From: Coriobacteriia bacterium
Lineage (GTDB): Bacteria > Actinomycetota > Coriobacteriia > Anaerosomatales > JAAXUF01
Direction of reading: 5' to 3'
Assembly: GCA_013336165.1 (NCBI GenBank)
Contig: JAAXUF010000008.1
Location: 4,538 to 68,537 of the forward strand
Length of the DNA stretch: 64,000 nucleotides
Shown here: positions 27,815 through 45,541 of the stretch, piece by piece
Position numbering within the stretch: the first letter of the stretch is position 1
Layout of the letters: each line of letters opens with the position of its first letter
Program-made: the position numbers and the translations under genes
The notes under the pieces: model-generated
Databases searched by the model: none
Told to the model about the DNA's origin: nothing
Seen by the model: only the letters and a program-made list of their open reading frames with translations

Positions 27815-27961
27815 TCCGGCCCGACACCTTGAGGCCTGCAGTCGACGGACGTTGTGCCTGACCCCCCTTCGTGAGAACATTCGAGCGCGTCCCGACACTT
27901 GCCGATAATCGAGTGGACCGGGCACACACCGTTGGAGACGAAGACCGAAAGGTACTCTGGG

Positions 27962-28336: not shown

Positions 28337-28351
28337 GGGCGAGCGCTCCAC

Positions 28352-29515
28352 ATGGCACTGCGCGGCAATCTTCAGGATTTCAGCCTTCCGGATATCTTTC
28401 AGCTGGTGTCATACAGCAGAAAGAACGGGGTGCTACACCTGCACGGTGCTGACGGCCTTACCGGTGACGTCATGTTCCGAGAAGGCCAGATCGCCCATGC
28501 TAGGAGCGACCGGTGGAAGGAGCCGCTGGGCGAGCGGCTTGTACGTTCGCGCAAGATATCGCGCCAAGACCTCAAGTGCGCTCTCGAAATCCGAGATCAT
28601 GGCGACTCGGATGACAGGCGTCTCGGGCGGATCCTTATCGACACCGGCTGTGCGAGCGAAGATGTAGTCACGGACTTCGTTCGCGAGCAGGTACAGGAGA
28701 CGGTTTTCGATCTCATGCAGTGGGAGGAAGGCGACTTCAGCTTCGAAGCGACTTCCGATGTCGTGGACGAAGATGTCGGCCCGGCACTCTCCATCGAGAA
28801 CATCATCATGGAGGGCAGCAGGCGGCTGGAGGAGTGGACCACCATCCGACGCAAGATCCCGTCGGCCGAGGTGGTGCTGGGGTTGGCTATCGCACCAGGG
28901 GACGGCGACGTCGACATCTCACTGAAGCCCGCTGAGTGGGCCCTGATGCCGTTCATCGACGGCCGACGCTCTGTCGCTACCATCGCATTTGAGTCCGGGC
29001 GCACGGAGTTCGAGGTCGCCAGAACGCTCTACGGGTTGCTGGGCGCCGGGCTGCTCGAGTTCGCCGAGACCGATGTCGACAGCGAGCAGGAGCCGCAAGC
29101 CGATCTCGCTGTCGTGACCGAGGAGCCGGTGCCCGCACAGGAAGAGGCGGAACTCGAACCGGAACCCGAACTAGAGCCGGAACCCCAACCCGAGCCGGTC
29201 TTCGTGATAGACGAACCCATCTACGAGACACTGCCGGTGGCCGAGCCGGAGATGCCGGCGGTCACCTCGCCTGAGGATGTGCCGCAAGGTCCACCACTCG
29301 CCCTCTTTGACGCCGAGCAGCCCGAGCCGACACCGGTATCCTTCGAGGGACTCGGCGAAGAGTTGTCTGCTCTGACTGGTGCAGAGCGCCGGGTGCGCCC
29401 GGAAGCACGGTCAGCGCCGGAACCGGACAGCCAACCCCGGGAGCCGTTGCGTTCCCGTTCTCAAATCAACAAGGACACTCTTCTCAAGGTCATAAATGGC
29501 CTGCGGAAGCTGTAG
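28352..29515 (+). CDS. PATAN/DUF4388-domain protein with an E/P-rich disordered tail
   Basis: - The N-terminus 'LRGNLQDFSLPDIFQLVSYSRKNGVLHL' is the DUF4388 (PATAN) hallmark.
- 'LGERLV...LGRILIDTG' resembles GspE-N repeats.
- 'LKPAEWALMPFIDGRRSVATIA...EVARTLYGLLGAGLLEF' looks like a winged helix.
- A roughly 130-aa E/P-rich region follows, including 'ELEPEPELEPEPQPEP'. Confidence 0.7.
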   Translation: MALRGNLQDFSLPDIFQLVSYSRKNGVLHLHGADGLTGDVMFREGQIAHARSDRWKEPLGERLVRSRKISRQDLKCALEIRDHGDSDDRRLGRILIDTGCASEDVVTDFVREQVQETVFDLMQWEEGDFSFEATSDVVDEDVGPALSIENIIMEGSRRLEEWTTIRRKIPSAEVVLGLAIAPGDGDVDISLKPAEWALMPFIDGRRSVATIAFESGRTEFEVARTLYGLLGAGLLEFAETDVDSEQEPQADLAVVTEEPVPAQEEAELEPEPELEPEPQPEPVFVIDEPIYETLPVAEPEMPAVTSPEDVPQGPPLALFDAEQPEPTPVSFEGLGEELSALTGAERRVRPEARSAPEPDSQPREPLRSRSQINKDTLLKVINGLRKL

Positions 29516-29530
29516 AGAGAGCAAGGGTAC

Positions 29531-30055
29531 ATGCATTCGCTCAAGGTCGTCATCGTTGGTCCGGCGGGCTCCGGCAAGACGACGTTCATCGGCGCAGTGA
29601 GCGAGATCACCGTGCTTTCGACCCGCCGCGAGATCGGTGCGGGTGGCAAGGATGCGGCGGACCGCATTGCGGTAGACATGGACTTCGGCCGGGTCACCCT
29701 TGCCGACGACATCGTTCTCTACCTCTTTGGCACACCGGGGCATGAGCGCGTTTCCTTCATGTGGGAGACTCTTTCCGAGGGGTTGCTCGGCTTCGTGGTG
29801 CTGCTCGACAGTGAGAATTCGGCGTCTCTCGAAGAGGCCCGCGAGACAATTGCGTTTCTGAGGGGTGACTCCGAGTTGCCATTTCTGGTCGCGGCGAACA
29901 AGCTTGCACCGGATGACGCAGCGGCCGTCAAGCATTTGCGCACGTCGCTGCACCTGCCCGATGACATTCCGCTTGTTTCGGTAGATGCAAGAAGCAGAGA
30001 ATCGGCAAAGCTAGTCCTTGAAGGTTTGGCGCAAGAAGCAGTGAGGAGAGGTTAG
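29531..30055 (+). CDS. Small Ras-like GTPase, CvnD/COG2229 'ATP/GTP-binding protein' family (MglA-related)
   Basis: 174 aa. P-loop 'VGPAGSGKTTFIGAVSEI', 'MDFGRVTL', G3-like 'LYLFGTPGHERVSFMW', 'GFVVLLD', and G4-like 'AANKLA'. This closely parallels Streptomyces conservon CvnD proteins as I remember them. Confidence 0.8.
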   Translation: MHSLKVVIVGPAGSGKTTFIGAVSEITVLSTRREIGAGGKDAADRIAVDMDFGRVTLADDIVLYLFGTPGHERVSFMWETLSEGLLGFVVLLDSENSASLEEARETIAFLRGDSELPFLVAANKLAPDDAAAVKHLRTSLHLPDDIPLVSVDARSRESAKLVLEGLAQEAVRRG

Positions 30056-30505
30056 ATGACCCCGGAGTTGAATCGGATCGCCCTTGTCGGCGGAGCGGGT
30101 CTCCTGCTGGTCGTCGCCATGATGGTGCTGATCGTCTCGGCTGTCCGTGGTTCCCGGGCACGGAAGCGGCAGAAGGCTGCGGCGGCGCAGTATGTCGCAC
30201 CGCCCGAGAGCGGGCAGTCTCCGGCTCCGGCCGAGCCCCCGGTATCGCCTCCGGTCTGGGTTCAAGCCGAGGAGCCCCTGGCCCCGGAGCCTGTCGGCAC
30301 GGCCGTTCTCCAGGAGATCGAGCCCGCCGACTTCTCCCCGGAAGAAGTGCCAGTCAAGTACGCGATGACCGCGCCGGCGGAGATGTGGTTCGACGATCTT
30401 CACGTCGGCGTCAAGGCAGAAAGCGTCACCGCCGAGCGTCTGCGCTACTATGCTGACATCCTATTGGATGAGGTACATAACTCCTCGTCGAAGCGCGAGC
30501 AGTAA
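30056..30505 (+). CDS. Single-pass membrane protein with a proline-rich linker, function unknown
   Basis: Its ATG directly abuts the GTPase TAG stop. The TM helix is 'IALVGGAGLLLVVAMMVLIVSAV', followed by a basic stretch and then a P/E/A-rich region. Confidence 0.55.
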   Translation: MTPELNRIALVGGAGLLLVVAMMVLIVSAVRGSRARKRQKAAAAQYVAPPESGQSPAPAEPPVSPPVWVQAEEPLAPEPVGTAVLQEIEPADFSPEEVPVKYAMTAPAEMWFDDLHVGVKAESVTAERLRYYADILLDEVHNSSSKREQ

Positions 30506-30526: not shown

Positions 30527-32200
30527 TTGGCAGACGCGGCACAAAGGCTCGGTGAACTACTCGTTCGGGCGGGCGTCATCACGGCCAGTCAGCGAGACGA
30601 CGCCGTCCAGGTCCATGTCGCAACGGCTTCCCCGCTTGGCAAAGTGCTGGTTGAACTGGGCTATGCCAGCCACGGCGCGATCCTCGCGGTGGTGGCAAAG
30701 CAGATCGGCATCGAGTACATGGATCTGAGCGAGCGTCGCCCCGAACCGGGCGCCGTTGCGCTCATACCGCGCGAAGTTGCGACGCGCTACATGCTGATGC
30801 CGCTCGAGATTCGGGGCAACACTCTTCTGGTTGCCATGGCCGATCCACAAAACGTGCTCACCATCGATCACGTCAGGATCATCACCGGGCACGAGATCAG
30901 ACCCGCGATCTCGACGAAGAATGACATCCTTGAGGCGATCCGGCAGTACTACGATGTTGCCGATCGTGACGACAGTGACCTGCGCCTAGAAACAGACGAA
31001 CCGGACGACGAGGAACTCGGCCAGTTGGCGGACGTCGAGTCCGAGGCGCCTGCGGTCAAGCTCGTGAACTACATCATCCAGAAGGCCGTCAACGACCGGG
31101 CCTCAGACATCCACATCGAACCGCAACAAGATGAACTGCGCGTGCGGTTCCGGGTGGACGGCGTGCTCGTTGAAGCGACACCGCCGATCCCGAAGTCTAC
31201 TCAGGCATCCATCATCTCGCGGTTCAAGATCATGGCCGACATGGACATCTCGGAGTCGCGTCGGCCTCAAGACGGCCATTGCTCAGTATCCGTGGGCGGG
31301 CAAAAGCTCGATGTGCGAGTCTCGTCGTTGCCGACGGTTTTTGGCGAGCGCATGGTCTTGCGTCTCCTGCGCAAGGACTCGATCCTGCTGCAGCTCTCGG
31401 ATCTGGGCTTCCTGCCCTCGGCGAAGGACCGCTTTGAAGCCGCTTTCACCAAGCCGTACGGCGCGGTCTTGGTCACGGGTCCCACCGGTTCAGGCAAGTC
31501 GACCACGCTCTACGCTGCGGTCAATGTGCTCAACGACCCGTCCCGCCACATCATGACCGCCGAGGATCCGGTGGAGTACCGGCTCGCCGGCGTGAATCAA
31601 TGCCAGGTGAACCCCAAATTGGGAATGACCTTCGCGCGAGCGCTGCGATCGTTTCTGCGCTGCTCTCCCGATGTGATCTTGGTGGGGGAGATCCGCGACC
31701 AAGAAACGGCCAAGATCGCGATTGAGTCCGCGCTCACGGGACACTTAGTGCTCTCGACACTGCACACAAATGACTCCGCATCCGCGATCACTAGGTTGAT
31801 CGAGATGGGCGTCGAGCCGTTTCTGGTCTCGTCGGCTGTCGATTGCGTGCTCGCGCAGCGTCTTGCGCGGCGGCTATGCCCAGAATGCCGACAGGCGTGG
31901 ACGCCGGAATCCGGGGCGCTCATTAAACTGGGCTACGATGCCGATAGTCTTCCCGACGTCGTATACCGGGCCGTGGGTTGCAGAAAGTGCGGCGGCACCG
32001 GCTACAAGGGACGCTTGGGAGTTCATGAGGTTCTCTTGGTTTCCGACGAGATCAGGAGGCTGTGTGTTTCTGAAGCGTCAGTAGAGGAAATCAGACGCAC
32101 CGCCATTGAGCAGGGCATGAGGACATTGCGGCAGGACGGTCTTGAGAAGGTTCGACAGGGTCTGACGTCGGTTGAGGAAATCGTTCGTGTGATAGTGTAA
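30527..32200 (+). CDS. pilB: Type IV pilus assembly ATPase, PilB/GspE family (copy 2)
   Basis: TTG start, 557 aa (the same length as copy 1). Shows 'LGELLVRAGVITASQ', Walker A 'GPTGSGKSTT', 'ILVGEIRD', 'GHLVLSTLHTN', and the tetracysteine 'CPEC...CRKCGGTGYKGR'. Confidence 0.92.
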   Translation: MADAAQRLGELLVRAGVITASQRDDAVQVHVATASPLGKVLVELGYASHGAILAVVAKQIGIEYMDLSERRPEPGAVALIPREVATRYMLMPLEIRGNTLLVAMADPQNVLTIDHVRIITGHEIRPAISTKNDILEAIRQYYDVADRDDSDLRLETDEPDDEELGQLADVESEAPAVKLVNYIIQKAVNDRASDIHIEPQQDELRVRFRVDGVLVEATPPIPKSTQASIISRFKIMADMDISESRRPQDGHCSVSVGGQKLDVRVSSLPTVFGERMVLRLLRKDSILLQLSDLGFLPSAKDRFEAAFTKPYGAVLVTGPTGSGKSTTLYAAVNVLNDPSRHIMTAEDPVEYRLAGVNQCQVNPKLGMTFARALRSFLRCSPDVILVGEIRDQETAKIAIESALTGHLVLSTLHTNDSASAITRLIEMGVEPFLVSSAVDCVLAQRLARRLCPECRQAWTPESGALIKLGYDADSLPDVVYRAVGCRKCGGTGYKGRLGVHEVLLVSDEIRRLCVSEASVEEIRRTAIEQGMRTLRQDGLEKVRQGLTSVEEIVRVIV

Positions 32201-32238
32201 GGTGGTCTTCAGGCGTTATGGGGGTATGAGGAGCAAGA

Positions 32239-33447
32239 ATGACGACATTTGCATACGCGGTCAGGGACAAGTCCGGCAAGGTTGTGAAGGGCAAGCTTGA
32301 CGGTGAGAGCCAAGCGGCTGTCCAGAGCAAACTCTCCCAAATGGGCTACATCATTCTCGAGCTGAGACAGCAAAGTGCGCTCATGTCGTTCGGGGCAATC
32401 AAGATCGGCGGCAGCGTCAAGCCCAAGGAAGTCACGATCTTCGCACGTCAGTTCTCCACGATGATCCATGCGGGGCTCTCGCTCACGAAATGTCTGACGA
32501 TTCTGTCGCAGCAGACCGAGAGTGCAGCGCTTAAGGAAGTCATCGCTCAGATTGGGAAGGACGTCGAAGCCGGGCAGTCGCTATCTGAGGGGCTTGCTAA
32601 GCATCCCAAGGTCTTTCCCCCGATCTTCGTAAGCATGACCCGCGCCGGAGAAATCGGTGGTGTTCTGGACGAGGTCTTGGCTCGTGTGGCGGATCACCTT
32701 GAGGCCGAACAGGCTCTCAAAGGCAAGATCAGGTCCGCAATGATGTATCCGATCGCGATCGGATGCCTAGTAGTCCTCATCCTGGCGGCAATGCTGATCT
32801 TCGTGGTTCCCATATTTGTTGAGATGTTTGCGGGCATGGGAGGTACGCTTCCCCTGCCTACCCAAATCCTCGTAGACTTTTCCAATTTGGTCACGAGTTT
32901 CTGGGGCCTTGTGATTCTAGCTGCGATCATCGCTGTGATCTGGTTTTTTCGCTGGTGGTCCAAGGGGGCGGGGAAGCTGGCGTGGGACCGGATCAAGCTG
33001 GGCATGCCTGTCTTTGGGCCCCTGGTTCGAAAGATTGCTCTGGCTAGGTTCAGCCGGACCTTTGCGACACTGGTTTCCGCCGGTGTTCCGATCCTTCAAG
33101 CACTGGACATAGTCGCTGAGACATCGGGTAACGAGGTGATCTCTCTTGCTGTGAAGAAGTCGCGTGCTGCCATCAAGGAGGGCGAGACTATTGCCAAGCC
33201 GCTGTCGGAATCTAAGGTCTTCCCCCCGATGCTTGTTCAGATGATCAGCGTAGGCGAGGAAACCGGTGCGTTGGACACCATGCTCAACAAAGTTGCTGAG
33301 TTCTACGATGAGGAGGTCGCCTCAGCAACGGATGGGCTGACATCGCTGATTGAGCCGCTCATGATGGTTACGCTCGGTCTGATAGTGGGAGGTATGGTGA
33401 TAGCTCTGTACCTTCCGATGTTCAATGTGATAGCGTTAGTCAAGTAG
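32239..33447 (+). CDS. pilC: Type IV pilus platform protein PilC (GspF family)
   Basis: 402 aa with two GspF repeats ('FARQFSTMIHAGLSL' and 'FSRTFATLVSAGVPI'). The C-terminal 'EPLMMVTLGLIVGGMVIALYLPMF' is typical of the family. Confidence 0.92.
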   Translation: MTTFAYAVRDKSGKVVKGKLDGESQAAVQSKLSQMGYIILELRQQSALMSFGAIKIGGSVKPKEVTIFARQFSTMIHAGLSLTKCLTILSQQTESAALKEVIAQIGKDVEAGQSLSEGLAKHPKVFPPIFVSMTRAGEIGGVLDEVLARVADHLEAEQALKGKIRSAMMYPIAIGCLVVLILAAMLIFVVPIFVEMFAGMGGTLPLPTQILVDFSNLVTSFWGLVILAAIIAVIWFFRWWSKGAGKLAWDRIKLGMPVFGPLVRKIALARFSRTFATLVSAGVPILQALDIVAETSGNEVISLAVKKSRAAIKEGETIAKPLSESKVFPPMLVQMISVGEETGALDTMLNKVAEFYDEEVASATDGLTSLIEPLMMVTLGLIVGGMVIALYLPMFNVIALVK

Positions 33448-33571
33448 GGGGGTGGTTTCATCGAAGACTCTTGGCGTGTCTCAAGTTTCGCGTCCATGCG
33501 TCGATATAGGAACTACAAACACAGTGGGCGAACCCACGCAGGTCCCCAAAAGGGGAAGGAGACTCGAGGAA

Positions 33572-33952
33572 ATGCAAGCATTTCGCAAGAACGATGAAGG
33601 CTTCACGCTCGTAGAACTCATGGTCGTCGTTTTGATCATCGGTATCTTGGTCGCCATCGCGATCCCGGTATTCAACAACGCCAGCAACAACGCGCGTATC
33701 AAGTCTTGTCAGGCCAACATGCGAACCATTGAAGGCGCCTACCAGACGTACATGGCCAACAACGGCACGGCCATCACTGCCGCAACTACGGTTGTCTCGG
33801 GCGGGATCTTGGTTCCGGGCTTCATTGCCGCTGTGCCTGCGTGTCCCTCCGATCCGAACTTCGGAACCACCACCGCCAAGACCCCCTACAGCTTGGCTAC
33901 AACTGGCTTGACGGCCTGTCCGATCGTGCCTCTCACTCACATCCACTACTAG
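33572..33952 (+). CDS. pilA: Type IV (T4a-like) major pilin, copy 1
   Basis: ORF 33452..33952 trimmed to ATG 33572. The leader is 'MQAFRKNDEG', then 'FTLVELMVVVLIIGILVAIAIP' (class III signal, Glu at +5). The C-terminal Cys pair is 'ACPSD...TACP'. Confidence 0.9.
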   Translation: MQAFRKNDEGFTLVELMVVVLIIGILVAIAIPVFNNASNNARIKSCQANMRTIEGAYQTYMANNGTAITAATTVVSGGILVPGFIAAVPACPSDPNFGTTTAKTPYSLATTGLTACPIVPLTHIHY

Positions 33953-33959
33953 CATGCGA

Positions 33960-34015
33960 GACTCGCTGCCAAGGGTTCGCGGTTGGGTTTGTGCCGCGGC
34001 CCGTGGCAGCGAGTC
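33960..34015 (+). terminator. Strong inter-pilin stem-loop (candidate partial terminator or mRNA-stabilising hairpin)
   Basis: There is a perfect 12-bp inverted repeat: 'gactcgctgcca' (33960-33971) and 'tggcagcgagtc' (34004-34015). The 32-nt interior contains a nested 'cgcgg/ccgcg' pair. No U-tract follows. Confidence 0.4.
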
Positions 34016-34060
34016 CCTAAGGCGCGGCGATGTTTCCGAAGAAGGGGAAGCTGTACAGTT

Positions 34061-34441
34061 ATGATCAACTGGAGAAGACGGAACGAAGGTTTCACGCTCG
34101 TAGAACTCATGGTCGTCGTTTTGATCATCGGTATCTTGGTCGCCATCGCGATCCCGGTGTTCACGAACGCCAGCAACAACGCGCGTATCAAGTCTTGTCA
34201 GGCCAACATGCGAACCATTGAAGGCGCCTACCAGACGTACATGGCCAACAACGGCACGGCCATCACTGCCGCAACTACGGTTGTTCAGGGTGGGATCTTG
34301 GTTCCGACCTTCATTAAGGCGCCGCCCGTGTGTCCCTCAGATCCGAACTTCGGAACCACCACCGCCAAGACCCCCTACAGCTTGGCTACAACTGGCTTGA
34401 CGGCCTGTCCGATCGTGCCTCTCACTCACATCCACTACTAG
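34061..34441 (+). CDS. pilA: Type IV (T4a-like) major pilin, copy 2
   Basis: ORF 33983..34441 trimmed to ATG 34061. The leader is 'MINWRRRNEG', then 'FTLVELM...'. The mature part differs from copy 1 at 6 of 116 residues by my alignment. Confidence 0.9.
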   Translation: MINWRRRNEGFTLVELMVVVLIIGILVAIAIPVFTNASNNARIKSCQANMRTIEGAYQTYMANNGTAITAATTVVQGGILVPTFIKAPPVCPSDPNFGTTTAKTPYSLATTGLTACPIVPLTHIHY

Positions 34442-34545
34442 AGGTCGTGGCTATAGTTGGCGGATTAAGACTCGGGCTCTCTTGATTCTTGAGCGCGCCG
34501 ATCGTATACGGGTGTAGCGATTGGTGATGAAGTGGCCCTCGCCAG

Positions 34546-35376
34546 ATGGGATTGGGTGGATCAGTGGCTGCGTATGTCCTTCTGGCGGCTCTAGGTTTTG
34601 TCTTTGGCTCATTCGCAAACGTCGTCATTTGGCGTCTTCCGCGCGGTGAATCGCTGAACCACCCTGGCTCGCATTGTCCAAAATGCAGTTCGTCAATTGC
34701 ATGGTATGACAACGTTCCGGTGCTCTCCTACATCTTCTTGGGCGGGCAGTGCAGGGTGTGTGGTGCTCGTATATCACTGCGCTATCCGATCGTTGAGCTG
34801 CTCTCGGCGCTGTTGTGGCTCGCCGCCGGAATTCGGTTTGGTATCACGCCTCAAGCTGCGTTCGCTATGGTCTTCTTCTTTCTTCTGCTCATCCTTGCCT
34901 TCATCGATATCGACACCATGCGTCTGCCTAACGCTCTCACGGCACTGCTGTTCGTGATCGGCGCCATCGGCGTGGGTGTCGCTCAATTTGCTCAAATGGC
35001 GCTGGTTCCGCTCCTGCCGGTTGCCGCTCTACCATGGGGGCCGGGTGTCTCTGCCCTGATCGGGGCGAGTCTGTCAGCGGGTCTGGCGTTGGCAATTGCC
35101 GCGGCGTATGGCAGTTTGAGGAAGACCCAAGGCTTCGGCATGGGCGACGTGAAGCTATTGGGGGTCATCGGCGTCTTCCTTGGCTTGTATGGCCTCATGG
35201 TCTTCTTCTTGGGCAGTGTGATGGGGGCGGTGTACGGCGTGATCGTGGCGCGCCGTAGCGGTGGATCGTTGCAGCATAAGTTCGCCTTCGGGCCGTTTCT
35301 GGCTCTCGCTGCAGTGTTGGTGACGTTGTTCGGACCAACGCTGTGGTATTCCTACCTTGGCATCTTCGCGGGATGA
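34546..35376 (+). CDS. pilD: Prepilin peptidase / N-methyltransferase PilD (A24 family)
   Basis: 'CPKC...CRVCG' is the zinc/methyltransferase-region motif. It is a polytopic membrane protein. 'ILAFIDIDTMRLPN' and 'GFGMGDVKLLG' contain the two catalytic Asp motifs. Confidence 0.9.
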   Translation: MGLGGSVAAYVLLAALGFVFGSFANVVIWRLPRGESLNHPGSHCPKCSSSIAWYDNVPVLSYIFLGGQCRVCGARISLRYPIVELLSALLWLAAGIRFGITPQAAFAMVFFFLLLILAFIDIDTMRLPNALTALLFVIGAIGVGVAQFAQMALVPLLPVAALPWGPGVSALIGASLSAGLALAIAAAYGSLRKTQGFGMGDVKLLGVIGVFLGLYGLMVFFLGSVMGAVYGVIVARRSGGSLQHKFAFGPFLALAAVLVTLFGPTLWYSYLGIFAG

Positions 35377-35468
35377 TGGCTTAAGATTGCTTGTGGCAGT
35401 TACTCACTATGGTATCATCAGCCACGTGATCGTGTAGATCTTGTGCAGGGCAACGGGAGGGGGAAGCG

Positions 35469-36593
35469 TTGGCTCGATCATCTTTTGGCGCTGCACCACT
35501 GCCCGTTGGTCTTGATGTGGGGACTGACAGGATTCGAGTGGCTCAGATCAAGCAGAGTGGTATCGGCAGGGCGCTGACTGCCTATGGATCGATCACGATG
35601 CCGCTCGGTGCCACGGTTGAGGGGGAGATCATCGATCCGACGATCGTTTCCTTGGCAATCAAGAACCTATGGAGAAGCGTAGGCCTTCGCTCCAAAGAGG
35701 TTTCGATTGGCGTCTCGAACCAGAAGGTCATTGTCCGTCTGATTGACTTGCCATTCATGGACAAAGACGAACTCGCTGGGGCAATCCAGTATCAAGCTCA
35801 AGACTACATCCCAATTCCCGTAGAAGATGCTGTACTCGATTTTCAGATTCTTGGCGATTACATGACGCCATCTGACGAGCACATGATGGAAGTGCTTCTC
35901 GTCGCTGCGCAGCGAGACATGATCGCCAATGTCGTTGCCGCGGTTGAGGGGGCGGGTCTACGACTTGCCTCTATCGATGTCACTGCGTTCGCACTGGTTC
36001 GGGCGCTGCTGGGCACGGAAACCTCATGGCTGGCCACGGAGTTCAACGATCCAAGCCAGGCCTTGGGGGTCGTGCACATCAGTTCAGGATTGACCACGAT
36101 CGTGGTGCTAGAGCGAGGGATTCCGCGGTTCACCAGGGTTTCCTCTCTTGCCGGCAACCAGATGACACAAGCGGTTGCGACCGCTCTCAACATCACATTT
36201 GATGAGGCAGAAGCAATCAAGATCAAGGTCGGGCTGCCAAGTATGGACGGCACGCCCACCATCCCTGAGGGCGTCGACCCGGCTCAGGCGCAGGCCGCGC
36301 AGGAGACAATTGAACGCGAAGCGGGGAAGTTGATCGCCGAGATCCGTCGTTCTTTCGACTACTACCTCACTCAGGCTAACGGGGTACACGGTGTCCAGAA
36401 GGTCTATCTGACCGGCAATGGTGCACTTATGGGCAACCTGCCGGCGTATATGGAAAAAGGGCTGCAAGCGGAGGTGTGCTTGGGCGATCCGCTTGCGCAT
36501 GTGCAGATTGCGGCTGCGGTTGAGCACTCCGTCGTCGCAGACCGAATGGGCTGCGCGGCTTCGATCGGTCTGGCACTTGGGGGTACCTTCTGA
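35469..36593 (+). CDS. pilM: Type IV pilus assembly protein PilM (actin-like ATPase fold)
   Basis: TTG start. 'VGLDVGTDRIRVAQIK', 'DYIPIP', and 'IDVTAFALVRAL' fit PilM. The gene directly precedes pilN. Confidence 0.88.
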   Translation: MARSSFGAAPLPVGLDVGTDRIRVAQIKQSGIGRALTAYGSITMPLGATVEGEIIDPTIVSLAIKNLWRSVGLRSKEVSIGVSNQKVIVRLIDLPFMDKDELAGAIQYQAQDYIPIPVEDAVLDFQILGDYMTPSDEHMMEVLLVAAQRDMIANVVAAVEGAGLRLASIDVTAFALVRALLGTETSWLATEFNDPSQALGVVHISSGLTTIVVLERGIPRFTRVSSLAGNQMTQAVATALNITFDEAEAIKIKVGLPSMDGTPTIPEGVDPAQAQAAQETIEREAGKLIAEIRRSFDYYLTQANGVHGVQKVYLTGNGALMGNLPAYMEKGLQAEVCLGDPLAHVQIAAAVEHSVVADRMGCAASIGLALGGTF

Positions 36594-37255
36594 TGGTACA
36601 CATCAACCTTCTGCCTCGTGCCGTACTCAATCGCCGGCGCTATGAGCGGTGGTACCGCTACATCTTCATCATTGCGGTCGGCCTCGTGGCTTTGGTTCTG
36701 CTTCTCTCCGGCGCCCTGTGGCTGATGGTGCAACAGAAGACCGATACTCTGCAGAGCGCAAACGAGCAGGTTCAGCAATATCGAGCTCAATCGGATGCGC
36801 TTGCGGTGTTCGAACAAAACACGCAGACCTTGCAGGCCCGTCAAGCTGCTGTTCAGGCCGCCCTGTCGCAACGTGTTGACATGGGCAAGCTGGCCAACAA
36901 CATCTCTCTGGTTCTTCCTAGTGAGGTCTGGCTCAAATCAATCACAATAGGACAAGAATCCGGAGTGCTCGTGGTGGGGAGTACTCCACGTTCAACGAGC
37001 CAGTCGATGGATGTCGCCTACAAGTCGATCGCCAAGACGCTTGTGCGATTGGGCGAACTCAAAGAACTATCCAGCGTATGGCTTTCGAGCGCTGCCAACA
37101 CGATATGGCAGGAATGGGCCGTGCAAAGTGGATCAGCCAAGCCGGATCCGATCAATGTGGTCGGTTTCCAGATCACAGGGAAGCTAGACAAGATCAAGGC
37201 GCTTCTGGATGCGCCTGCCGCCTCGTCCACCACGTCCGGTACTTCGGGCAAATAG
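36593..37255 (+). CDS. pilN: Type IV pilus assembly protein PilN
   Basis: It has the canonical N-terminal 'INLLP' motif, a TM helix and a coiled coil. The ATGA start overlaps the pilM stop. Confidence 0.8.
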   Translation: MVHINLLPRAVLNRRRYERWYRYIFIIAVGLVALVLLLSGALWLMVQQKTDTLQSANEQVQQYRAQSDALAVFEQNTQTLQARQAAVQAALSQRVDMGKLANNISLVLPSEVWLKSITIGQESGVLVVGSTPRSTSQSMDVAYKSIAKTLVRLGELKELSSVWLSSAANTIWQEWAVQSGSAKPDPINVVGFQITGKLDKIKALLDAPAASSTTSGTSGK

Positions 37256-37267
37256 GGAGAGGGGCGG

Positions 37268-37885
37268 ATGACGTTGTCACCAAGGAACAAGGTCATACTC
37301 ACGATAGTGGGATGCGTTATTGCGATAGCGGTACTAGCTGTTGCCCTGATGCTGCCCATGTACAATGAGCTAGGCAAGTTGGATACACAGATTTCGACGG
37401 CGGACCAGCAGGCTGCGGTATTCAAGGCAAAGCTCGCTCAACGGCAGCAAATGAAAGATCAGTCTGCCAGCACGAACGCGACGTGGTTGCAGCTTACGAG
37501 CGCAGTACCGGAGAGCGCAAACCTACCTTCACTTATCATCGATTTGCAGGATGCTGCCTTTGCGAGTGGAGTCCAGTTAGTTGCGCTCACCCCCTCGGCG
37601 CCTACCTCACCCACAGCGGCGGCCGGTGGAGTGCAAGCGACAACGAGCGCATACCTGATCATTCCAGTCCAACTTGAAATCATTGGAACCTGGTCAGACA
37701 CGGTTGATTATCTGCAACGCATTCAGAAGCTGACCAGGAGTCTGCGCATCACGGAGTTCACTTCTACTGTGTCGGACAACGATACGCAGGCCAAGAAGGC
37801 AAATGCGACGTTGCCCGATTACTTCGAGGCAACCTCAATCAAGATCGAGGTCTATATGATTTCGGCGTCTGCGACGGGGAAGTAG
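37268..37885 (+). CDS. pilO: Type IV pilus assembly protein PilO
   Basis: A TM helix is followed by the coiled coil 'LGKLDTQISTADQQAAVFKAKLAQRQQ' and a C-terminal ferredoxin-like region 'IPVQLEIIGTWSDTVDYLQRIQKL'. The gene sits in the position after pilN. Confidence 0.72.
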   Translation: MTLSPRNKVILTIVGCVIAIAVLAVALMLPMYNELGKLDTQISTADQQAAVFKAKLAQRQQMKDQSASTNATWLQLTSAVPESANLPSLIIDLQDAAFASGVQLVALTPSAPTSPTAAAGGVQATTSAYLIIPVQLEIIGTWSDTVDYLQRIQKLTRSLRITEFTSTVSDNDTQAKKANATLPDYFEATSIKIEVYMISASATGK

Positions 37886-37894
37886 GGGCAGACG

Positions 37895-38455
37895 ATGACT
37901 GACACGAACTTCACCGATGTGCAGCAAACTGCCAGGCCTGCCGGCTTCTTCTCGACTTCAACCGGCAAGGTCGTGTTGGTTGCGATCGTCGCGGTTGTGC
38001 TGCTTGCCGCCGTTGGTGTCGCAGCCTACATGTTTCTGATTGGCACGCTTGCTCCCAGCAGTTCGACTGGCGGTTCTCCTCAAGTCACCGTTACCTCAAC
38101 GGTTACTTCGGGCACTGCCGGTTCTGCGTCTGCACCAGCCGAGCCGCCTCTATCGGAAACCTTCATCCTGCGAAACGTCTTCGCACCAACAGTGAAGCCA
38201 TCCATTGTTGCGGCCCCTACCGGCGGAGGTTCGTCTGTTACCGTTCCGACCAACACACTGTATCTGGTGAGTACTCAGCTGACGCCAACGAAGACGGCGA
38301 CCTTCATCTGGAACAACGTCACGTATGTGGTTGCGGAGGGTGGTCAGGTAGGCACTTCTCCATGGAAGGTGCTGACCATAAGCGAGGGTTCTGTGCTGAT
38401 GTTGTACGGCGACTCCCAGGTGACGCTGACATCCGGGCAGAGTGTCGGCAAATAA
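37895..38455 (+). CDS. Single-pass membrane protein with a PilP/GspC-HR-like C-terminal beta domain (tentative)
   Basis: The TM helix is 'VVLVAIVAVVLLAAVGVAAYMFLI', followed by an S/T/G/P-rich linker. The C-terminal 'ATFIWNNVTYVVAEGGQVGTSPWKVLTISEGSVLMLYGDSQVTL' resembles the PilP beta-sandwich pattern. The gene occupies the pilP slot after pilO. Confidence 0.4.
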   Translation: MTDTNFTDVQQTARPAGFFSTSTGKVVLVAIVAVVLLAAVGVAAYMFLIGTLAPSSSTGGSPQVTVTSTVTSGTAGSASAPAEPPLSETFILRNVFAPTVKPSIVAAPTGGGSSVTVPTNTLYLVSTQLTPTKTATFIWNNVTYVVAEGGQVGTSPWKVLTISEGSVLMLYGDSQVTLTSGQSVGK

Positions 38456-41788: not shown

Positions 41789-43501
41789 ATGAGGAAACAT
41801 GAAGACGGGTTCACCGTAGCCGAGGTACTCATCTCCTTGGCGATCCTTCTGATTGTGGTAATGGGCGTGCTGACGGCGCTCGAGTACTCCGCGTGGACCA
41901 CCCAGCAAAATGCGATGCGGCAGGGTGCCGTTGAGTTGGCCAATAAGACGCTTGAGAAGGCGCGAACGATTCCCTATGCCGAGCTGGGCACACACTACCC
42001 GGACGGCACGTATGGCGACCCTCCAGGATCCATTCCAACCAGTACGACTGTGGGCGACTACACGGTCGTGACGAGCGTGTCTTGGGTGCGAGATCCTGTT
42101 TCGCACAGAGCGACATACAAAGATGTACAAGTGACGGTCTCGTGGCAGAAGCCGCATGCGTCAAGCGTATTTGTGGAGACGGGCGTCTTTGGCAAGAACA
42201 GCTACGTCAACAGCGGCGACGTCCAGATCCACGTTCTTGATGCCGACGATCTTAGTGCCCAGATCGCGGGCGCAGCGGTTACACTCACGCCAGCCACCGG
42301 AGTGACCCGATGGGAGACTACACTCACAGACGGAATCGCCTTCTTCGGCTACGTGCCATCGGGGGCCACAGGCGTGGCGGCCGCTCTCACGGGGTGGATG
42401 GCAGACCTCACCGCTTTCGGCGCGAAGACGGTCAACACTGACTCACTCAATGACTGGGCGCTCCTGATGCAGCGCGAAAGCGATGCAACCATCTACGTTG
42501 TTGGCGCTCCGAGCGGCTCGCCGATAGCGGGGGCAACGGTAACCCTGACGAATAATGAGCGATCACTCATCTATTACGGCACATCAAATGCGGCAGGGGC
42601 GGTGACCTTCCCTCAACTATGGAAGGCAACTGGCGCCGGGTACACGGTGTTGGTGACCTATCCCGGCCGTGATAATGGTGTCGCGTCATTCACAATCCCC
42701 AGCGGCGGGTATCACGCCAGCCAGACTGTGACGATTAACGACCCTACGTCGTTCGTGGTGTCCGTGAAGGATGCGGCCACGAATGCTGTGGTGGCAGGCG
42801 CGCAGGTCACCGTGCGTGACTCGGTCAATGCCCATGTCCCCGGGAGTCCCGGTGTCACAAGTGCAGGCGGCACGGCTTCATTCCAGATCAATCAGACCGG
42901 CACCTACACGGTCACAGTCGCTGCGACGGGATACACGACTTCGGTCACTTCCACCAACATCTCCGCGGGAGTTGGCGCCGTCACCTATATGGTCGCGTTG
43001 GCGCCGCCGACCTATCTCAGGGTGACGTGCAAGGACAGCGTGTCGAACCTTCCCATCGCAGGGGCGAGCGTCACGGTGGGCAGTACAACGCTGACCACCG
43101 ATAGTAGCGGGAACGCCCTCTTCACAATCACGGCAACGGGTACGTATGCCATCAATGCGACTGCGAGCGGCTACCAAGGCTACTCGGGATCGCAGTATGT
43201 TGCATTGGGCTCGGGCACAGTAGCCCATTCGGCGAGCATGGTTCCGGCGCCGACAACGGGGTCACTGCGAGTGCATGTTACGCGTTGGTGGGACGGGGAT
43301 CCTCGAGACGATGTGCAGGTGACCCTTTACAGGGGTAACACGCAGGTAGCAACTCAGAGGACGGATAGCGATGGTTACACCACTTTCACTAATCTCGCCC
43401 CTGGTACGAACTATAGAGTCAGGAGAACCAACTACAACACCTATTTCGGCTACTTCACCGTGACCGCCGGCTTGACCACGACCGCCGAAGTGAGCTGGTG
43501 A
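41789..43501 (+). CDS. Large pilin-like protein: prepilin-type N-terminus plus about five carboxypeptidase-regulatory-like beta-sandwich repeats (candidate pilus adhesin)
   Basis: ORF 41750..43501 trimmed to ATG 41789. The leader is 'MRKHEDG', then 'FTVAEVLISLAILLIVV' (Glu at +5). Five modules then recur with the pattern 'AGA.VT(L/V)...G.A.F..(L/I)..G.Y.V'. Examples are 'AGAQVTVRD...GTASFQINQTGTYTVTVAATGY' and 'AGASVTVGS...GNALFTITATGTYAINATASGY'. Confidence 0.78.
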   Translation: MRKHEDGFTVAEVLISLAILLIVVMGVLTALEYSAWTTQQNAMRQGAVELANKTLEKARTIPYAELGTHYPDGTYGDPPGSIPTSTTVGDYTVVTSVSWVRDPVSHRATYKDVQVTVSWQKPHASSVFVETGVFGKNSYVNSGDVQIHVLDADDLSAQIAGAAVTLTPATGVTRWETTLTDGIAFFGYVPSGATGVAAALTGWMADLTAFGAKTVNTDSLNDWALLMQRESDATIYVVGAPSGSPIAGATVTLTNNERSLIYYGTSNAAGAVTFPQLWKATGAGYTVLVTYPGRDNGVASFTIPSGGYHASQTVTINDPTSFVVSVKDAATNAVVAGAQVTVRDSVNAHVPGSPGVTSAGGTASFQINQTGTYTVTVAATGYTTSVTSTNISAGVGAVTYMVALAPPTYLRVTCKDSVSNLPIAGASVTVGSTTLTTDSSGNALFTITATGTYAINATASGYQGYSGSQYVALGSGTVAHSASMVPAPTTGSLRVHVTRWWDGDPRDDVQVTLYRGNTQVATQRTDSDGYTTFTNLAPGTNYRVRRTNYNTYFGYFTVTAGLTTTAEVSW

Positions 43502-44154
43502 GTCGATTGACAATCAGGTGGCGCGAGCGCAAAGGCGAATTGGGCGGCGACGCGGGGTTCACCCTAGTCGAGTTGATGATTGCGGTCAGCTTGCTTTCGC
43601 TCGTGTTGGCGACTGCGTATATGGTTCTCAATAGTGTCAGTTCGATGAGTGACCGCGTCTCGGCTCGCGAGATGGCAGCATCCAGTGCGAACTTGGCGAT
43701 CGAGCGAATGACGCGTGAACTCCGGCAGGCGCAGGAGTTGTCAACCGCCGAGGGTGCCGGGGTCTTCAGATACAACGAGCCGCAACGTGCATCGTTCTAT
43801 ATTGACTTAGATCACAACGGCACGCCGGAACGCGTGACCTACTACGTCTCGGGAACCACGCTCTATCGGACGGTCGCCGTAGCTACGATCACGTATCCGG
43901 GCGCGGGGAACTTCGGTGCCGATAGCGCTCCAACGGCGGTGCTGAGTGGCTTGGATCCGGGGTGGACGCCCAATGTGTTTGTCTACTACGACAACAGCAG
44001 TGTTCCGGCCGTGGTCAGCTCCGCGAATCCGGACGAGGTTTCGGCGGTCGAAATCACCGTCGTCGCACAGGGACGATCCGGATCCATCACCGCCTCTGCC
44101 ACGAGCACGACCTGGGTCAGGATTCGCTCAGTTCATAACGACATCGCTTACTAA
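43498..44154 (+). CDS. Minor pilin (prepilin-type N-terminal cleavage/methylation domain)
   Basis: 'GDAG' followed by 'FTLVELMIAVSLLSLVLATAYMVL' (Glu at +5). The start overlaps the upstream gene's stop (GTGA). Confidence 0.75.
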   Translation: MSRLTIRWRERKGELGGDAGFTLVELMIAVSLLSLVLATAYMVLNSVSSMSDRVSAREMAASSANLAIERMTRELRQAQELSTAEGAGVFRYNEPQRASFYIDLDHNGTPERVTYYVSGTTLYRTVAVATITYPGAGNFGADSAPTAVLSGLDPGWTPNVFVYYDNSSVPAVVSSANPDEVSAVEITVVAQGRSGSITASATSTTWVRIRSVHNDIAY

Positions 44155-44171
44155 AGCTGGAGAGAAGAGCC

Positions 44172-45464
44172 ATGGATACCCTGCGCATCAAGCGTGAGAT
44201 ACGGAAAGCGGTGCACCTCGCGCGTGCTGACGACGGGATGGCGCTGGCAACCGTGGTCGTGATCTCGGCGATTCTGTTTATGCTGGTGACCACACTCCTT
44301 GTGGTGGTTGCACAGCAGCAGCTTACGACCTCACATACTGTCGCAAGGGCTAAGGCGCTCCAAGTTGCGGATTCCGGAATTGACGCTTATCTCTACCACA
44401 TGAGGCAGAACACGACCTACTACTCCACCAATCCCGTGTTGGGACCGGTTGCAACCACTGAAGGCATGTTCACCGTCACCGCCACGCCACCAACGGGCAA
44501 CGGGCCCATCATCTTGAGATCCGTCGGCACCATACCATCCCTAGGGGCCACGAAAAGCATAGTCGCCTCAGTCAGATACCCAACCTTTGCTGACTATGTG
44601 TTCCTGTATGATACGGACATCAGTATCGGCTCTGAAGCCACCATTATTGGCAAGGTCAGAAGCAACAGAAGCATCGACAACGATGGCGTGATCACCGGTG
44701 CCTGCATCGCGGCCGATTCCATCACGGGAAGTGGTTCGTTTGGCAGCAGGCAGCCCGACTCGCCAGTCATCGACTTCTCGAGCGTCTTGACCGACATGGG
44801 CCAGATGAAGACCACGGCACAGGGGACATCCACGTATTTCGCGTCGTCGGGCACTCGCGGCTACCGGGTTATCCTGAACGGCATGAACTTCAGCGTTGCG
44901 AAGGTGACTGCTGTGAACAGTTCAACAGGCGCCCTGACTCTGGGAACCGCGACGAACTACTCGATTCCCACGGCAGGAATCCTCTATTTCAATGACACTA
45001 TCTGGCTCAGCGGAACGTACTCGACAAGAGTCACTGTTGCATGCGGCGATACGAGCGTCAACGACCCCGGCTATGCGACTCCCGTAGACGATTCGGCCGT
45101 GTTCATTCTGGACAACTTGGTCCCCCAGGATCCATATGGCACGGCGGTCTGCGGTGTCGTTGCGCTCGGGGATATCAGCGTACCCAGTTGGTACAGTTCG
45201 ATGCCGCAGGATCTGACGATCCAGGCCGCCCTTCTCTCGCAGGCCGGCGGTATCCATGCTGACTGGTCTTCTGCGAGGAACAAGGACAGCTTCCACTTGA
45301 TCGGATCTAGGGCGCAGAAAGGCGAGGGAGGTTTCGTGAGCGGCTCCATGGGCTTCATGTCGCGTGTCTACGAGTACGATGCTCGACTCGACACAAACCC
45401 GCCGCCCAGCTTCCCGGTTGTGAGAGACGGTGCGCTCAAGGTCAGTACGTGGGTCGAGAACTGA
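44172..45464 (+). CDS. PilX/GspK-like minor pilin lacking Glu+5 (tentative)
   Basis: 'ARADDG' followed by 'MALATVVVISAILFMLVTTLLVVVA', then 'ALQVADSGIDAYLYHM', which is PilX-N-like. A large C-terminal domain follows. It is the last gene of the minor-pilin trio. Confidence 0.55.
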   Translation: MDTLRIKREIRKAVHLARADDGMALATVVVISAILFMLVTTLLVVVAQQQLTTSHTVARAKALQVADSGIDAYLYHMRQNTTYYSTNPVLGPVATTEGMFTVTATPPTGNGPIILRSVGTIPSLGATKSIVASVRYPTFADYVFLYDTDISIGSEATIIGKVRSNRSIDNDGVITGACIAADSITGSGSFGSRQPDSPVIDFSSVLTDMGQMKTTAQGTSTYFASSGTRGYRVILNGMNFSVAKVTAVNSSTGALTLGTATNYSIPTAGILYFNDTIWLSGTYSTRVTVACGDTSVNDPGYATPVDDSAVFILDNLVPQDPYGTAVCGVVALGDISVPSWYSSMPQDLTIQAALLSQAGGIHADWSSARNKDSFHLIGSRAQKGEGGFVSGSMGFMSRVYEYDARLDTNPPPSFPVVRDGALKVSTWVEN

Positions 45465-45485
45465 CGGTCTGCGACATTAGTACTT

Positions 45486-45511
45486 GACCGGGTCGCTGCT
45501 GCGGCCCGGTT
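45486..45511 (+). terminator. Weak candidate terminator after the minor-pilin operon
   Basis: The stem 'gaccggg'/'cccggtt' encloses a 12-nt loop and is followed by the T-rich 'gtcttgttg'. It is short and imperfect. Confidence 0.3.
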
Positions 45512-45541
45512 GTCTTGTTGGGAGAGAGGCAGTGGTCTTCG

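What the first reader, a model, noticed from the sequence alone, without database searches (positions are those of the whole stretch)
41789..45464. Minor-pilin operon headed by a 570-aa pilin with about five beta-sandwich repeats (candidate pilus-tip adhesin), plus a Glu5-less PilX/GspK-like partner
Seen in the sequence: three consecutive genes have class III signal-like N-termini.
- 'G|FTVAEV...'
- 'G|FTLVEL...'
- 'G|MALATV...'. This one lacks Glu+5, as do GspK/PilX-type tip subunits.

The first gene carries five recurring modules of roughly 80-90 aa with the pattern 'AGA.VT(V/L)...G.A.F.....G.Y.V...A.GY', ending in '...VQVTLYRGNTQVATQRTDSDGYTTFTNLAPGTNYRV'. These resemble carboxypeptidase-regulatory / Cna-B-like folds found in Gram-positive adhesins.

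Inference: the three form a priming or tip complex that displays an adhesin stalk fused directly to a pilin. This block is separated from the rest of the pil genes by the aro genes and is noticeably more A/T-rich.
Basis: partly seen in the sequence, partly recalled or inferred. Interest (0 to 1): 0.55.

Follow-up and report, generated by a model that had tools for sequence, protein, structure and literature searches.

The report
Minor-pilin trio with stalked modular pilin
Three adjacent genes in an uncultured Coriobacteriia genome encode the minor subunits that most likely start and cap a type IV pilus, one of them carrying a five-domain beta-sandwich arm, which is a clear but uncharacterised example of the already catalogued "modular pilin" design.

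Summary
Genes at 41789-43501, 43498-44154 and 44172-45464 (+ strand) all begin with prepilin-type leaders: G|FTVAE, G|FTLVE and G|MALAT, the last without Glu5.

- **Gene 1 (570 aa):** a small pilin module followed by five CarboxypepD_reg beta-sandwich domains (Pfam E 4e-30; AlphaFold2 pLDDT 88). Its nearest solved folds are Gram-positive adhesin and pilin stalks.
- **Gene 2:** its N-terminus resembles GspJ.
- **Gene 3:** a pilin fold with an inserted beta-solenoid (pLDDT 90). Its best solved match is the Thermus tip pilin ComZ, not GspK.

The trio stays together as a unit in about 27 related loci. These come from Coriobacteriia, Desulfotomaculum and a candidate-phyla-radiation bacterium, and in several the trio lies inside the pil operon.

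The best reading is an I-J-K-like priming and tip complex that displays an adhesive or spacer arm. Processing, assembly, tip location and binding are all inferred, not shown.

The "pilin + PF13620" architecture was already the third commonest modular-pilin type in a 2021 survey (66 proteins). This is therefore a new member of a known kind. Interest is modest.

The parts
41789..43501 (+). P1: 570-aa modular minor pilin. It has a leader of 7 aa, a cleavage site G7|F8 and Glu5.
   Evidence: ORF. It is 100% identical to HGA39_07010, annotated as a hypothetical protein. Pfam N_methyl plus CarboxypepD_reg. AlphaFold2 pLDDT 87.9.
41810..42211 (+). P1 pilin module, residues 8-141: alpha1 helix 10-59 and a four-stranded sheet 85-133. 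It is weakly I-type (ComGE/PilV/GspI-like).
   Evidence: AlphaFold2 secondary structure. Sub-threshold NCBIfam hits to ComGE, PilV and GspI. It is the most conserved part among orthologues, 42-58% identity. An exhaustive HMM search with this module found 13,494 cluster representatives at E <= 1e-3.
42212..43498 (+). P1 stalk: five tandem beta-sandwich domains. D1 is 42212-42478, D2 42479-42742, D3 42743-43003, D4 43004-43249 and D5 43250-43498.
   Evidence: CarboxypepD_reg E 4.4e-30. AlphaFold2 strands. Foldseek matches to the B. anthracis TIE protein, SdrD B, Cna B and sortase pilins. D3/D4 look like a recent duplication. Identity to orthologues falls towards the C-terminus.
43498..44154 (+). 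P2: 218-aa minor pilin with G20|F21 and Glu5. Its N-terminus is J-type-like. Its start overlaps the P1 stop, which suggests translational coupling.
   Evidence: N_methyl 30.7 bits. GspJ TIGR01711 E 3e-7 over residues 19-83, below cutoff. Sequence at the junction. Orthologues of 188-252 aa always lie between the P1 and P3 homologues.
44172..45464 (+). P3: 430-aa Glu5-less pilin with G22|M23 and Thr at +5. A beta-solenoid (about residues 140-420, nt 44589-45431) is inserted before the last strand of the pilin fold. It is ComZ/PilX-type.
   Evidence: AlphaFold2 pLDDT 90.3, pTM 0.79. Foldseek top hit is ComZ 6qvi, E 1.2e-8, followed by ice-binding-protein beta-helices. This is the same topology as described for ComZ and cyanobacterial PilX. 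Family residue statistics.
45485..45512 (+). GC-rich hairpin just after the P3 stop. It is a possible terminator or processing site ahead of pepP.
   Evidence: 12-bp stem with 8 GC pairs. Fold -28.5 kcal/mol, z -2.0. The evidence is weak.
34546..35376 (+). PilD prepilin peptidase, the presumed processing enzyme for the trio.
   Evidence: ORF. The equivalent genes in related loci carry Peptidase_A24.
33452..34441 (+). Two near-identical major-pilin paralogues (33452-33952 and 33983-34441), presumed to form the pilus shaft.
   Evidence: ORFs. GspG/ComGC/PilA-type N-termini. 112/118 identical residues.
30527..37885 (+). Assembly machinery: pilB (30527-32200), pilC (32239-33447), pilM, pilN and pilO (35469-37885).
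   Evidence: ORFs. Pfam T2SSE/MshEN for pilB. Pfam labels of the syntenic genes in related loci.

Best explanation
The three genes are the minor-pilin set of a Gram-positive-type (monoderm) type IVa pilus system. They correspond in order and type to the I, J and K subunits: GspI/J/K, PilV/W/X or ComGE/GF/GG.

**Proposed mechanism.**
1. PilD cuts each protein after the conserved Gly.
2. The three subunits associate in the membrane through their hydrophobic N-terminal helices and form the priming complex on the PilC/PilMNO platform.
3. P3 takes the apex. It lacks Glu5 and so needs no partner above it, and its bulky beta-solenoid could not fit in the shaft.
4. P1 and P2 sit beneath P3.
5. The two major pilins then polymerise underneath, driven by PilB.

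The finished pilus would display at its tip the P3 solenoid and, hanging from the I-type subunit P1, an arm of five beta-sandwich domains. The arm most likely acts as a spacer and adhesive stalk that reaches a surface or glycan ligand.

**Shown here:** the sequence motifs, domain identities, confident fold predictions and conserved synteny with pilus genes.

**Inferred:** cleavage, trimer formation, tip location and adhesion.
For: - **Motifs:** prepilin motifs with family-wide conservation of Gly-1, of Glu5 in P1 and P2, and absence of Glu5 in most P3 homologues.
- **Subunit type:** gene order and the best (sub-threshold) HMM hits are I-type for P1 (ComGE, PilV, GspI), J-type for P2 (GspJ) and K-position for P3 (PilX_N, GspK, Verru_Chthon_A).
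- **P3 fold:** it matches the tip pilin ComZ. ComZ's pilin domain is closest to GspK and binds the adjacent I-type pilin PilA2.
- **Review support:** tip complexes are capped by a Glu5-less subunit, and in S. sanguinis they include modular adhesive pilins.
- **Synteny:** the trio is kept intact in about 27 loci. In L002, L003, L006, L007, L016 and L017 it lies inside the pil operon next to the pilin and pilD genes. In Desulfotomaculum it lies between pilC and pilM.
- **Domain conservation:** 26 of 27 first genes carry CarboxypepD_reg.
- **Exposed, adaptable arm:** length classes of about 490, 570 and 620-670 aa indicate that repeat number varies, and conservation declines distally.
- **Swappable modules:** in Bacillota the same pilin module carries other modules, including F5/8-type-C lectin domains.
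- **Fold relatives of the stalk:** they are the stalks of Gram-positive adhesins and pilins.
Against: - No direct evidence of expression, PilD processing, complex formation or presence in pili.
- The I, J and K assignments rest on HMM scores below the curated cutoffs.
- P2 was not modelled and no complex model could be run.
- CarboxypepD_reg domains are often only spacers, so no ligand can be named.
- A pilus tip carrying a roughly 59-kDa arm plus a 43-kDa solenoid has to pass a thick cell wall. How it does so is unexplained.
- No pilT gene was seen in the window, though not every ORF was annotated. Retraction-dependent functions therefore cannot be assumed.
Confidence: 0.65

Rival explanations
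1. The trio tips a DNA-uptake (competence) pilus. P3 would be a ComZ-like DNA receptor, and the P1 arm would be accessory.
For: - The only strong solved-structure match of P3 is ComZ, a DNA-binding competence tip pilin that pairs with an I-type pilin.
- Cyanobacterial PilX beta-solenoid pilins include a competence-associated subfamily.
- The candidate-phyla-radiation locus L008 has a ComEC-type gene about 7 kb downstream.
Against: - Mature P3 is acidic (pI 5.0, 8 Lys).
- The ORFs I annotated in the window include no competence genes, though the window was not fully annotated.
- The cluster has PilM/N/O and two major pilins, as in type IVa pili.
- Beta-solenoid PilX pilins also serve motility pili.
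- A five-domain beta-sandwich arm has no known role in DNA uptake.
Confidence: 0.12
2. The genes belong to a short, secretion-type pseudopilus that works like a type II secretion piston, not to a long surface pilus.
For: - The I-J-K set is shared with type II secretion systems.
- The window holds two PilB-type ATPases, which hints at two functions.
- A second C. perfringens pil gene set has been proposed to act in secretion (abstract listed).
Against: - A long arm on a pseudopilus tip has no precedent.
- Only one pilC and one pilMNO set are present.
- Cultured members of the Coriobacteriia order Anaerosomatales do make pili-like appendages. It is not known whether those are this system, or whether this genome belongs to that order.
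Confidence: 0.08
3. P1 is a true tip or priming subunit, but its beta-sandwich array is purely structural and not an adhesin. It could, for example, space the tip away from or through the thick cell wall, or stabilise the priming complex in place of the missing PilY1.
For: - CarboxypepD_reg and CnaB-like domains commonly form inert stalks (fold matches).
- No recognisable lectin or vWA head is present in P1.
- Cyanobacterial PilX solenoids are proposed to act as a PilY1-like "tip plug".
Against: - Distal domains are the least conserved and repeat number varies. This fits an exposed, ligand-facing part better than a machine part.
- Homologous carriers bear lectin modules.
Confidence: 0.15

Closest known systems
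Modular type IV pilins (Raynaud et al. 2021, PMC8179133), in particular the IPR012902-PF13620 architecture
   Same: An N-terminal pilin module is followed by domains not specific to pilus biology. PF13620 (CarboxypepD_reg) after the pilin motif is the third commonest architecture in that survey, with 66 proteins.
   Different: - No member of the PF13620 class has been characterised; a literature search found none.
- P1 has five tandem copies, not one.
- The N_methyl model detects only 5 of 27 family members at E <= 0.001. Surveys based on that signature therefore undercount the family.
Streptococcus sanguinis PilA-PilB-PilC tip complex
   Same: It is a monoderm type IVa pilus in which three minor pilins replace the usual four. 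One is I-like, and modular pilins display grafted adhesive domains at the tip.
   Different: - The S. sanguinis modules are vWA and lectin domains on PilB and PilC.
- Here the stalk sits on the I-like subunit, and the third subunit carries a beta-solenoid.
- No sequence relationship was detected beyond the pilin motif.
Thermus thermophilus ComZ (PDB 6QVI) with PilA2, and cyanobacterial PilX beta-solenoid pilins
   Same: - P3 has a pilin fold with a large triangular beta-solenoid inserted before the last strand.
- It is the top Foldseek hit at E 1.2e-8.
- It has the same secondary resemblance to ice-binding proteins as reported for ComZ and PilX.
- It is encoded next to I- and J-like pilins.
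   Different: - Sequence identity is only 14% and TM-scores are 0.30-0.34.
- P3 is smaller (430 against about 550 aa) and acidic.
- Thermus and the cyanobacteria are diderms with secretins.
- DNA binding is untested.
GspI-GspJ-GspK pseudopilus tip of type II secretion; FimU-PilV-PilW-PilX of Pseudomonas
   Same: Gene order matches, the last subunit is Glu5-less, and the N-terminal HMM resemblances fit.
   Different: - All HMM scores are below the family cutoffs.
- GspK carries an alpha-domain, not a solenoid.
- No H-type subunit (GspH/FimU) and no PilY1 were found in the cluster.
Stalk domains of Gram-positive sortase pilins and adhesins (Cna B, SdrD B, SpaA, BcpA, B. anthracis TIE protein)
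   Same: Tandem prealbumin/CnaB-like beta-sandwiches are the best structural matches to the P1 arm. Weak Pfam SpaA and SdrD_B hits fall on D5.
   Different: - P1 is anchored by a pilin helix. It ends in ...AEVSW with no LPXTG-type sorting motif in its C-terminal residues.
- No lysine column in the repeats is invariant or nearly invariant, so isopeptide bonds are not indicated.

Membership tests
Type IV pilin (class III signal peptide) | Gly at -1, a hydrophobic stretch of about 20 residues, and Glu at +5 | tested here: met
   P1 is G|FTVAE and P2 is G|FTLVE. P3 is G|MALAT and lacks Glu5, as known capping subunits do. Family conservation was counted and the sequences are.
Type IV pilin (class III signal peptide) | Pfam N_methyl (PF07963) at or above the gathering score | tested here: met
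   P1 scores 23.0 and P2 30.7 bits against a cutoff of 21.2. P3 has no hit.
Type IV pilin (class III signal peptide) | Pilin fold: a long N-terminal helix packed on an antiparallel beta-sheet | tested here: met
   AlphaFold2 gives P1 helix 10-59 with strands 85-133. P3 has a helix to residue 79, strands 89-135 and a C-terminal strand 423-429. P2 was not modelled.
Type IV pilin (class III signal peptide) | Cleavage and N-methylation by the prepilin peptidase; incorporation into filaments | not testable with these tools
   A pilD gene is present at 34546-35376. Showing cleavage needs an experiment.
Modular pilin (Raynaud 2021) | A pilin module followed by a domain that also occurs outside pilus biology | tested here: met
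   N_methyl plus CarboxypepD_reg x5.
CarboxypepD_reg (PF13620) | HMM score above the gathering cutoff and a beta-sandwich fold | tested here: met
   104.3 bits against 32.3, with 5 stretches. There are five beta-sandwich units at pLDDT mostly 85-97.
CnaB-type isopeptide domain | A conserved Lys-Asn/Asp pair with a catalytic Glu/Asp in each domain | tested here: not met
   The only invariant or nearly invariant Lys in alignments A1 and A7 is K111, which lies in the pilin module. Each of D1-D4 has a single Lys and D5 has none. The fold resemblance is not membership.
GspK / T2SS K pseudopilin | GspK family HMM at cutoff, and an alpha-helical domain inserted in the pilin sheet | tested here: not met
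   NF037980 gives 11 bits against 130. PilX_N gives 10.8 against 25.5. The predicted insert is a beta-solenoid. Only the absence of Glu5 is shared.
ComZ / PilX beta-solenoid tip pilin | A pilin fold interrupted by a triangular beta-solenoid between the penultimate and last strands | tested here: met
   The Foldseek top hit is 6qvi at E 1.2e-8, probability 1.00, followed by ice-binding proteins. The strand order in the model fits. The topology is as described. TM-scores are low (0.30-0.34), so this is fold-class membership only.
ComZ / PilX beta-solenoid tip pilin | Binding to the neighbouring I-type pilin, and DNA binding in the case of ComZ | not testable with these tools
I-type minor pilin (GspI / PilV / ComGE) | Family HMM at cutoff | tested here: inconclusive
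   The best NCBIfam hits of P1 are ComGE (23.1 bits against 49), PilV (19.4 against 52.2) and GspI (15 against 44). All cover only the N-terminal helix. A profile search against PDB sequences gave only generic pilin matches.
J-type minor pilin (GspJ / PilW) | Family HMM at cutoff | tested here: inconclusive
   P2 scores 30.3 bits on TIGR01711 against a cutoff of 64.85, over residues 19-83 only. There is a weak PDB hit to Thermus TTHA1219 at E 0.014.

The most novel reading that the evidence does not exclude
The arrangement of an I-type pilin bearing a variable-length beta-sandwich arm, a J-type pilin and a K-position pilin bearing a beta-solenoid may be an old, widely conserved tip organelle of monoderm lineages (Actinomycetota, Bacillota and candidate-phyla-radiation bacteria). 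It would replace the PilY1-plus-four-minor-pilins tip of diderms. Arm length (about 4 to 6 domains) and swappable distal modules would tune what the pilus can reach and bind. Current annotation largely misses it: all three genes are "hypothetical" in the source record, and the pilin motif is detected in only 5 of 27 family members.
Probability: 0.2. Interest if true: 0.55.

Novelty: new member of a known kind. Interest (0 to 1): 0.3.

Why it matters
If the reading is right, it gives a concrete and testable model for how the pili of uncultured, free-living Coriobacteriia attach to surfaces. The tip would be built from three co-inherited subunits, one carrying a modular arm.

The work also shows that this trio recurs across several Gram-positive-type lineages. 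Annotation based on the pilin signature undercounts it, which matters for surveys of pilus adhesins.

It does not change the current concepts of type IV pilus assembly. It fits them.

Tried and rejected
- **Genome scans with broad alignments.** Scanning the genome collection with the P1 N-terminal alignments (A3, A5) or the broad P3 alignment (A2) failed because no stretch was conserved enough. A narrower P3 alignment (A6) worked.
- **Typing P1 and P2 from PDB sequences.** Profile searches of the P1 pilin module and of P2 against PDB sequences returned only generic pilin helices. They could not assign I or J type.
- **Foreign origin from A/T-richness.** Rejected. The GC difference is 1.6-3 points, GC3 is not lowered, and the main pil block is even lower in GC.
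- **CnaB-type isopeptide bonds in the repeats.** Rejected for lack of conserved lysines.
- **P3 as a GspK family member.** Rejected on HMM scores and predicted fold.
- **Is the family rare?** The first word-indexed homology search suggested so, with 7 orthologues. The exhaustive profile search corrected this: 87 cluster representatives at E <= 1e-30 and 1,310 at E <= 1e-10.
- **Characterised pilins with this domain.** A literature search for "carboxypeptidase regulatory-like" together with "minor pilin" found nothing.
- **Published link between Gram-positive pil operons and shikimate genes.** The search gave no usable statement.

Full report
**What is in the sequence.**
Three ORFs lie head to tail on the + strand.
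- P1 is 41789-43501 (570 aa).
- P2 is 43498-44154 (218 aa). Its GTG start overlaps the TGA of P1.
- P3 is 44172-45464 (430 aa). It starts 17 nt after P2 and has a GGAGAG upstream.

All three begin with a short charged leader ending in Gly, followed by a hydrophobic stretch: MRKHEDG|FTVAEV...GGDAG|FTLVEL and ...RADDG|MALATV. The Pfam N_methyl model passes its gathering score for P1 (23.0 bits) and P2 (30.7 bits; cutoff 21.2) but does not detect P3.

The window comes from a metagenome-assembled Coriobacteriia genome. P1 and P3 are 100% identical to HGA39_07010 and HGA39_07020, both annotated "hypothetical protein".

**The repeats.**
CarboxypepD_reg (PF13620) matches P1 at E 4.4e-30 (104 bits against a cutoff of 32.3) in five stretches. 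Weaker overlapping hits to bMG3, SpaA, SdrD_B and Big_1 also appear.

An AlphaFold2 model built on eight sequences has mean pLDDT 87.9. It shows a helix at 10-59, a four-stranded sheet at 85-133, and then five beta-sandwich units between about 142 and 570.

Foldseek against the PDB returns the B. anthracis TIE protein (E 1.4e-14), SdrD B domains, Cna B repeats and many sortase-pilin stalks.

By pairwise sequence only D3 and D4 are clearly related (30/77 identical, z 10.8). The other pairs are recognisable only through the profile. No lysine column in the repeats is invariant or nearly invariant across orthologues. This argues against CnaB-type isopeptide bonds.

**The partners.**
P2's N-terminal 65 residues resemble GspJ (TIGR01711, E 3e-7, below cutoff).

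P3 gives only faint PilX_N, GspK and Verru_Chthon_A hits. Its model, however, is confident: 47 sequences, pLDDT 90.3, pTM 0.79. It shows a pilin helix and sheet, then a long run of short strands with one flanking helix, and a final strand at the C-terminus.

The only strong PDB match is ComZ of Thermus thermophilus (6qvi, E 1.2e-8), followed by ice-binding-protein beta-helices. This is the pair of resemblances reported for ComZ itself. ComZ is a pilin fold closest to GspK, with a beta-solenoid inserted before the last strand. It was argued to sit at the pilus tip and shown to bind the adjacent I-type pilin PilA2. A 2026 preprint reports the same solenoid in all cyanobacterial PilX pilins.

In the P3 family Gly-1 is present in 45 of 47 members, but position +5 is Glu in only 7 of 47. 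In the P1 family Glu5 is invariant (27/27).

**Context.**
The window is a housekeeping stretch with all of these genes on the + strand:

recJ-like, relA, hisS, aspS, ..., alaS, mltG, ..., aroE, pilB, Roadblock/LC7, DUF4388, small GTPase, unknown, pilB, pilC, two pilins, pilD, pilM, pilN, pilO, unknown, aroC, aroK, aroB, aroQ, P1, P2, P3, pepP, efp.

Its GC content (58.8%) is only slightly below that of the window (61.9%) and the aro genes (60.4%). The main pil block is lower still (56-57%). GC3 of the trio is not reduced. Composition gives no sign of foreign origin.

A GC-rich hairpin follows P3 at 45485-45512.

**Relatives.**
The trio travels as a unit.
- In another Coriobacteriia genome (L001), and in L010, it sits in the same place after aroQ.
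- In L002, L003 and L006 it lies inside the pil operon between the pilin genes and pilD.
- In L007, L016 and L017 it lies after pilD.
- In L018 it lies after pilO and the unknown gene.
- In a Desulfotomaculum contig (L004, L005) it lies between pilC and pilM.
- In a Candidatus Lloydbacteria genome (L008) a 620-aa CarboxypepD_reg protein, a 237-aa protein and a 490-aa P3 homologue follow pilC and other pilin-like genes.

Of 27 first-gene proteins, 26 carry CarboxypepD_reg. Only 5 are recognised by N_methyl at E <= 0.001. Their lengths cluster near 490, 570 and 620-670 aa, and the alignment shows whole repeats gained or lost. Identity to orthologues falls from the pilin module (42-58%) to the distal domains (18-41%).

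An exhaustive profile search with the pilin module alone found 13,494 cluster representatives at E <= 1e-3, 1,310 at <= 1e-10 and 87 at <= 1e-30. About 120 of the best 150 are 400 aa or longer.

More distant long members come from Bacillota, including Syntrophomonas. They carry CarboxypepD_reg, F5/8-type-C lectin domains, a glycine-rich domain, or nothing recognisable.

**Interpretation.**
Four lines of evidence point the same way:
- the gene order;
- the weak I, J and K-position resemblances;
- the Glu5-less, bulky third subunit;
- the strict co-inheritance with pilus machinery genes.

They fit the established model in which a complex of minor pilins primes assembly, ends up at the tip, and is capped by a subunit lacking Glu5.

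The closest functional precedent is the S. sanguinis PilA-PilB-PilC tip, where modular pilins present adhesive domains. For P1, the arm is best read as an exposed stalk with an adhesive or spacing role. The grounds are the distal divergence, the variation in repeat number, and the lectin modules on homologous carriers.

None of this is shown directly. Cleavage, trimer formation, tip location and binding are inferences.

**Rivals.** Three alternatives remain open:
- a ComZ-like DNA-uptake tip, weakened by P3's acidity (pI 5.0) and the absence of competence genes among the ORFs I annotated;
- a secretion-type pseudopilus;
- a purely structural arm.

**Novelty.**
Raynaud et al. (2021) defined modular pilins and list IPR012902-PF13620 as the third most frequent architecture, with 66 proteins. 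Beta-solenoid K-position pilins are also described. The finding is therefore a new, uncharacterised member of a known kind.

Three features are mildly new:
- the five-fold tandem arm sits on the I-like subunit;
- the trio is conserved across Coriobacteriia, Bacillota and a candidate-phyla-radiation genome;
- signature-based annotation detects the family poorly.

[quoted passage not shown] I could not establish that these are the same system, or that this genome belongs to that order.

Noticed in passing
window 25133-47235: The whole type IV pilus cluster is embedded in the conserved shikimate/translation block aroE ... aroC-aroK-aroB-aroQ-pepP-efp. The main pil genes lie between aroE and aroC, and the minor-pilin trio lies between aroQ and pepP. 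Relatives keep the pil operon just upstream of aroC but place the trio at different points (L001, L002, L006, L007, L018).
   Followed up: partly
window 27899-30505: A cassette of Roadblock/LC7 (27899-28336), DUF4388/PatA_N (28352-29515), a small Ras/Arf-like GTPase (29531-30055) and a 149-aa unknown protein sits between two PilB-type ATPase genes (26141 and 30527). The same cassette precedes pilB in L002, L006 and L007. It resembles MglA/MglB-type or conservon-type regulators and may control the pilus.
   Followed up: partly
window 33452-34441: There are two tandem major-pilin paralogues, identical at 112 of 118 aligned residues from the cleavage site onward. This recalls the PilE1/PilE2 pair of S. 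sanguinis.
   Followed up: partly
window 37895-38455: A 186-aa protein with one N-terminal membrane helix and a Ser/Thr/Gly-rich region follows pilO. It has no Pfam hit. A gene of about 200-214 aa occupies the same position in L001, L002, L006, L007 and L018. It may be a missing alignment-complex component (a PilP analogue?).
   Followed up: no
window 3322-6954: A 1,210-aa ORF fuses RecJ domains (DHH, DHHA1, RecJ_OB) to a HIRAN domain and a DEAD/Helicase_C helicase. This combination is unusual.
   Followed up: no
L023 and L025 (contig JANYKZ010000027.1): One Coriobacteriia contig carries two complete trios about 11 kb apart. Each has a long first pilin (529 and 586 aa ORFs), a second pilin of 212-244 aa and a P3 homologue. 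This suggests duplication and diversification of the tip set.
   Followed up: partly
P0192 and P0202 (Bacillota-type relatives of the P1 pilin module): The same I-type pilin module is fused to F5/8-type-C (discoidin, galactose-binding-like) domains in place of a pure CarboxypepD_reg arm. This is direct evidence that the carrier accepts different effector modules.
   Followed up: partly
window 45485-45512: A GC-rich 12-bp hairpin lies between the P3 stop and pepP (-28.5 kcal/mol, z -2.0). It is only weakly terminator-like because its T-tract is poor.
   Followed up: partly
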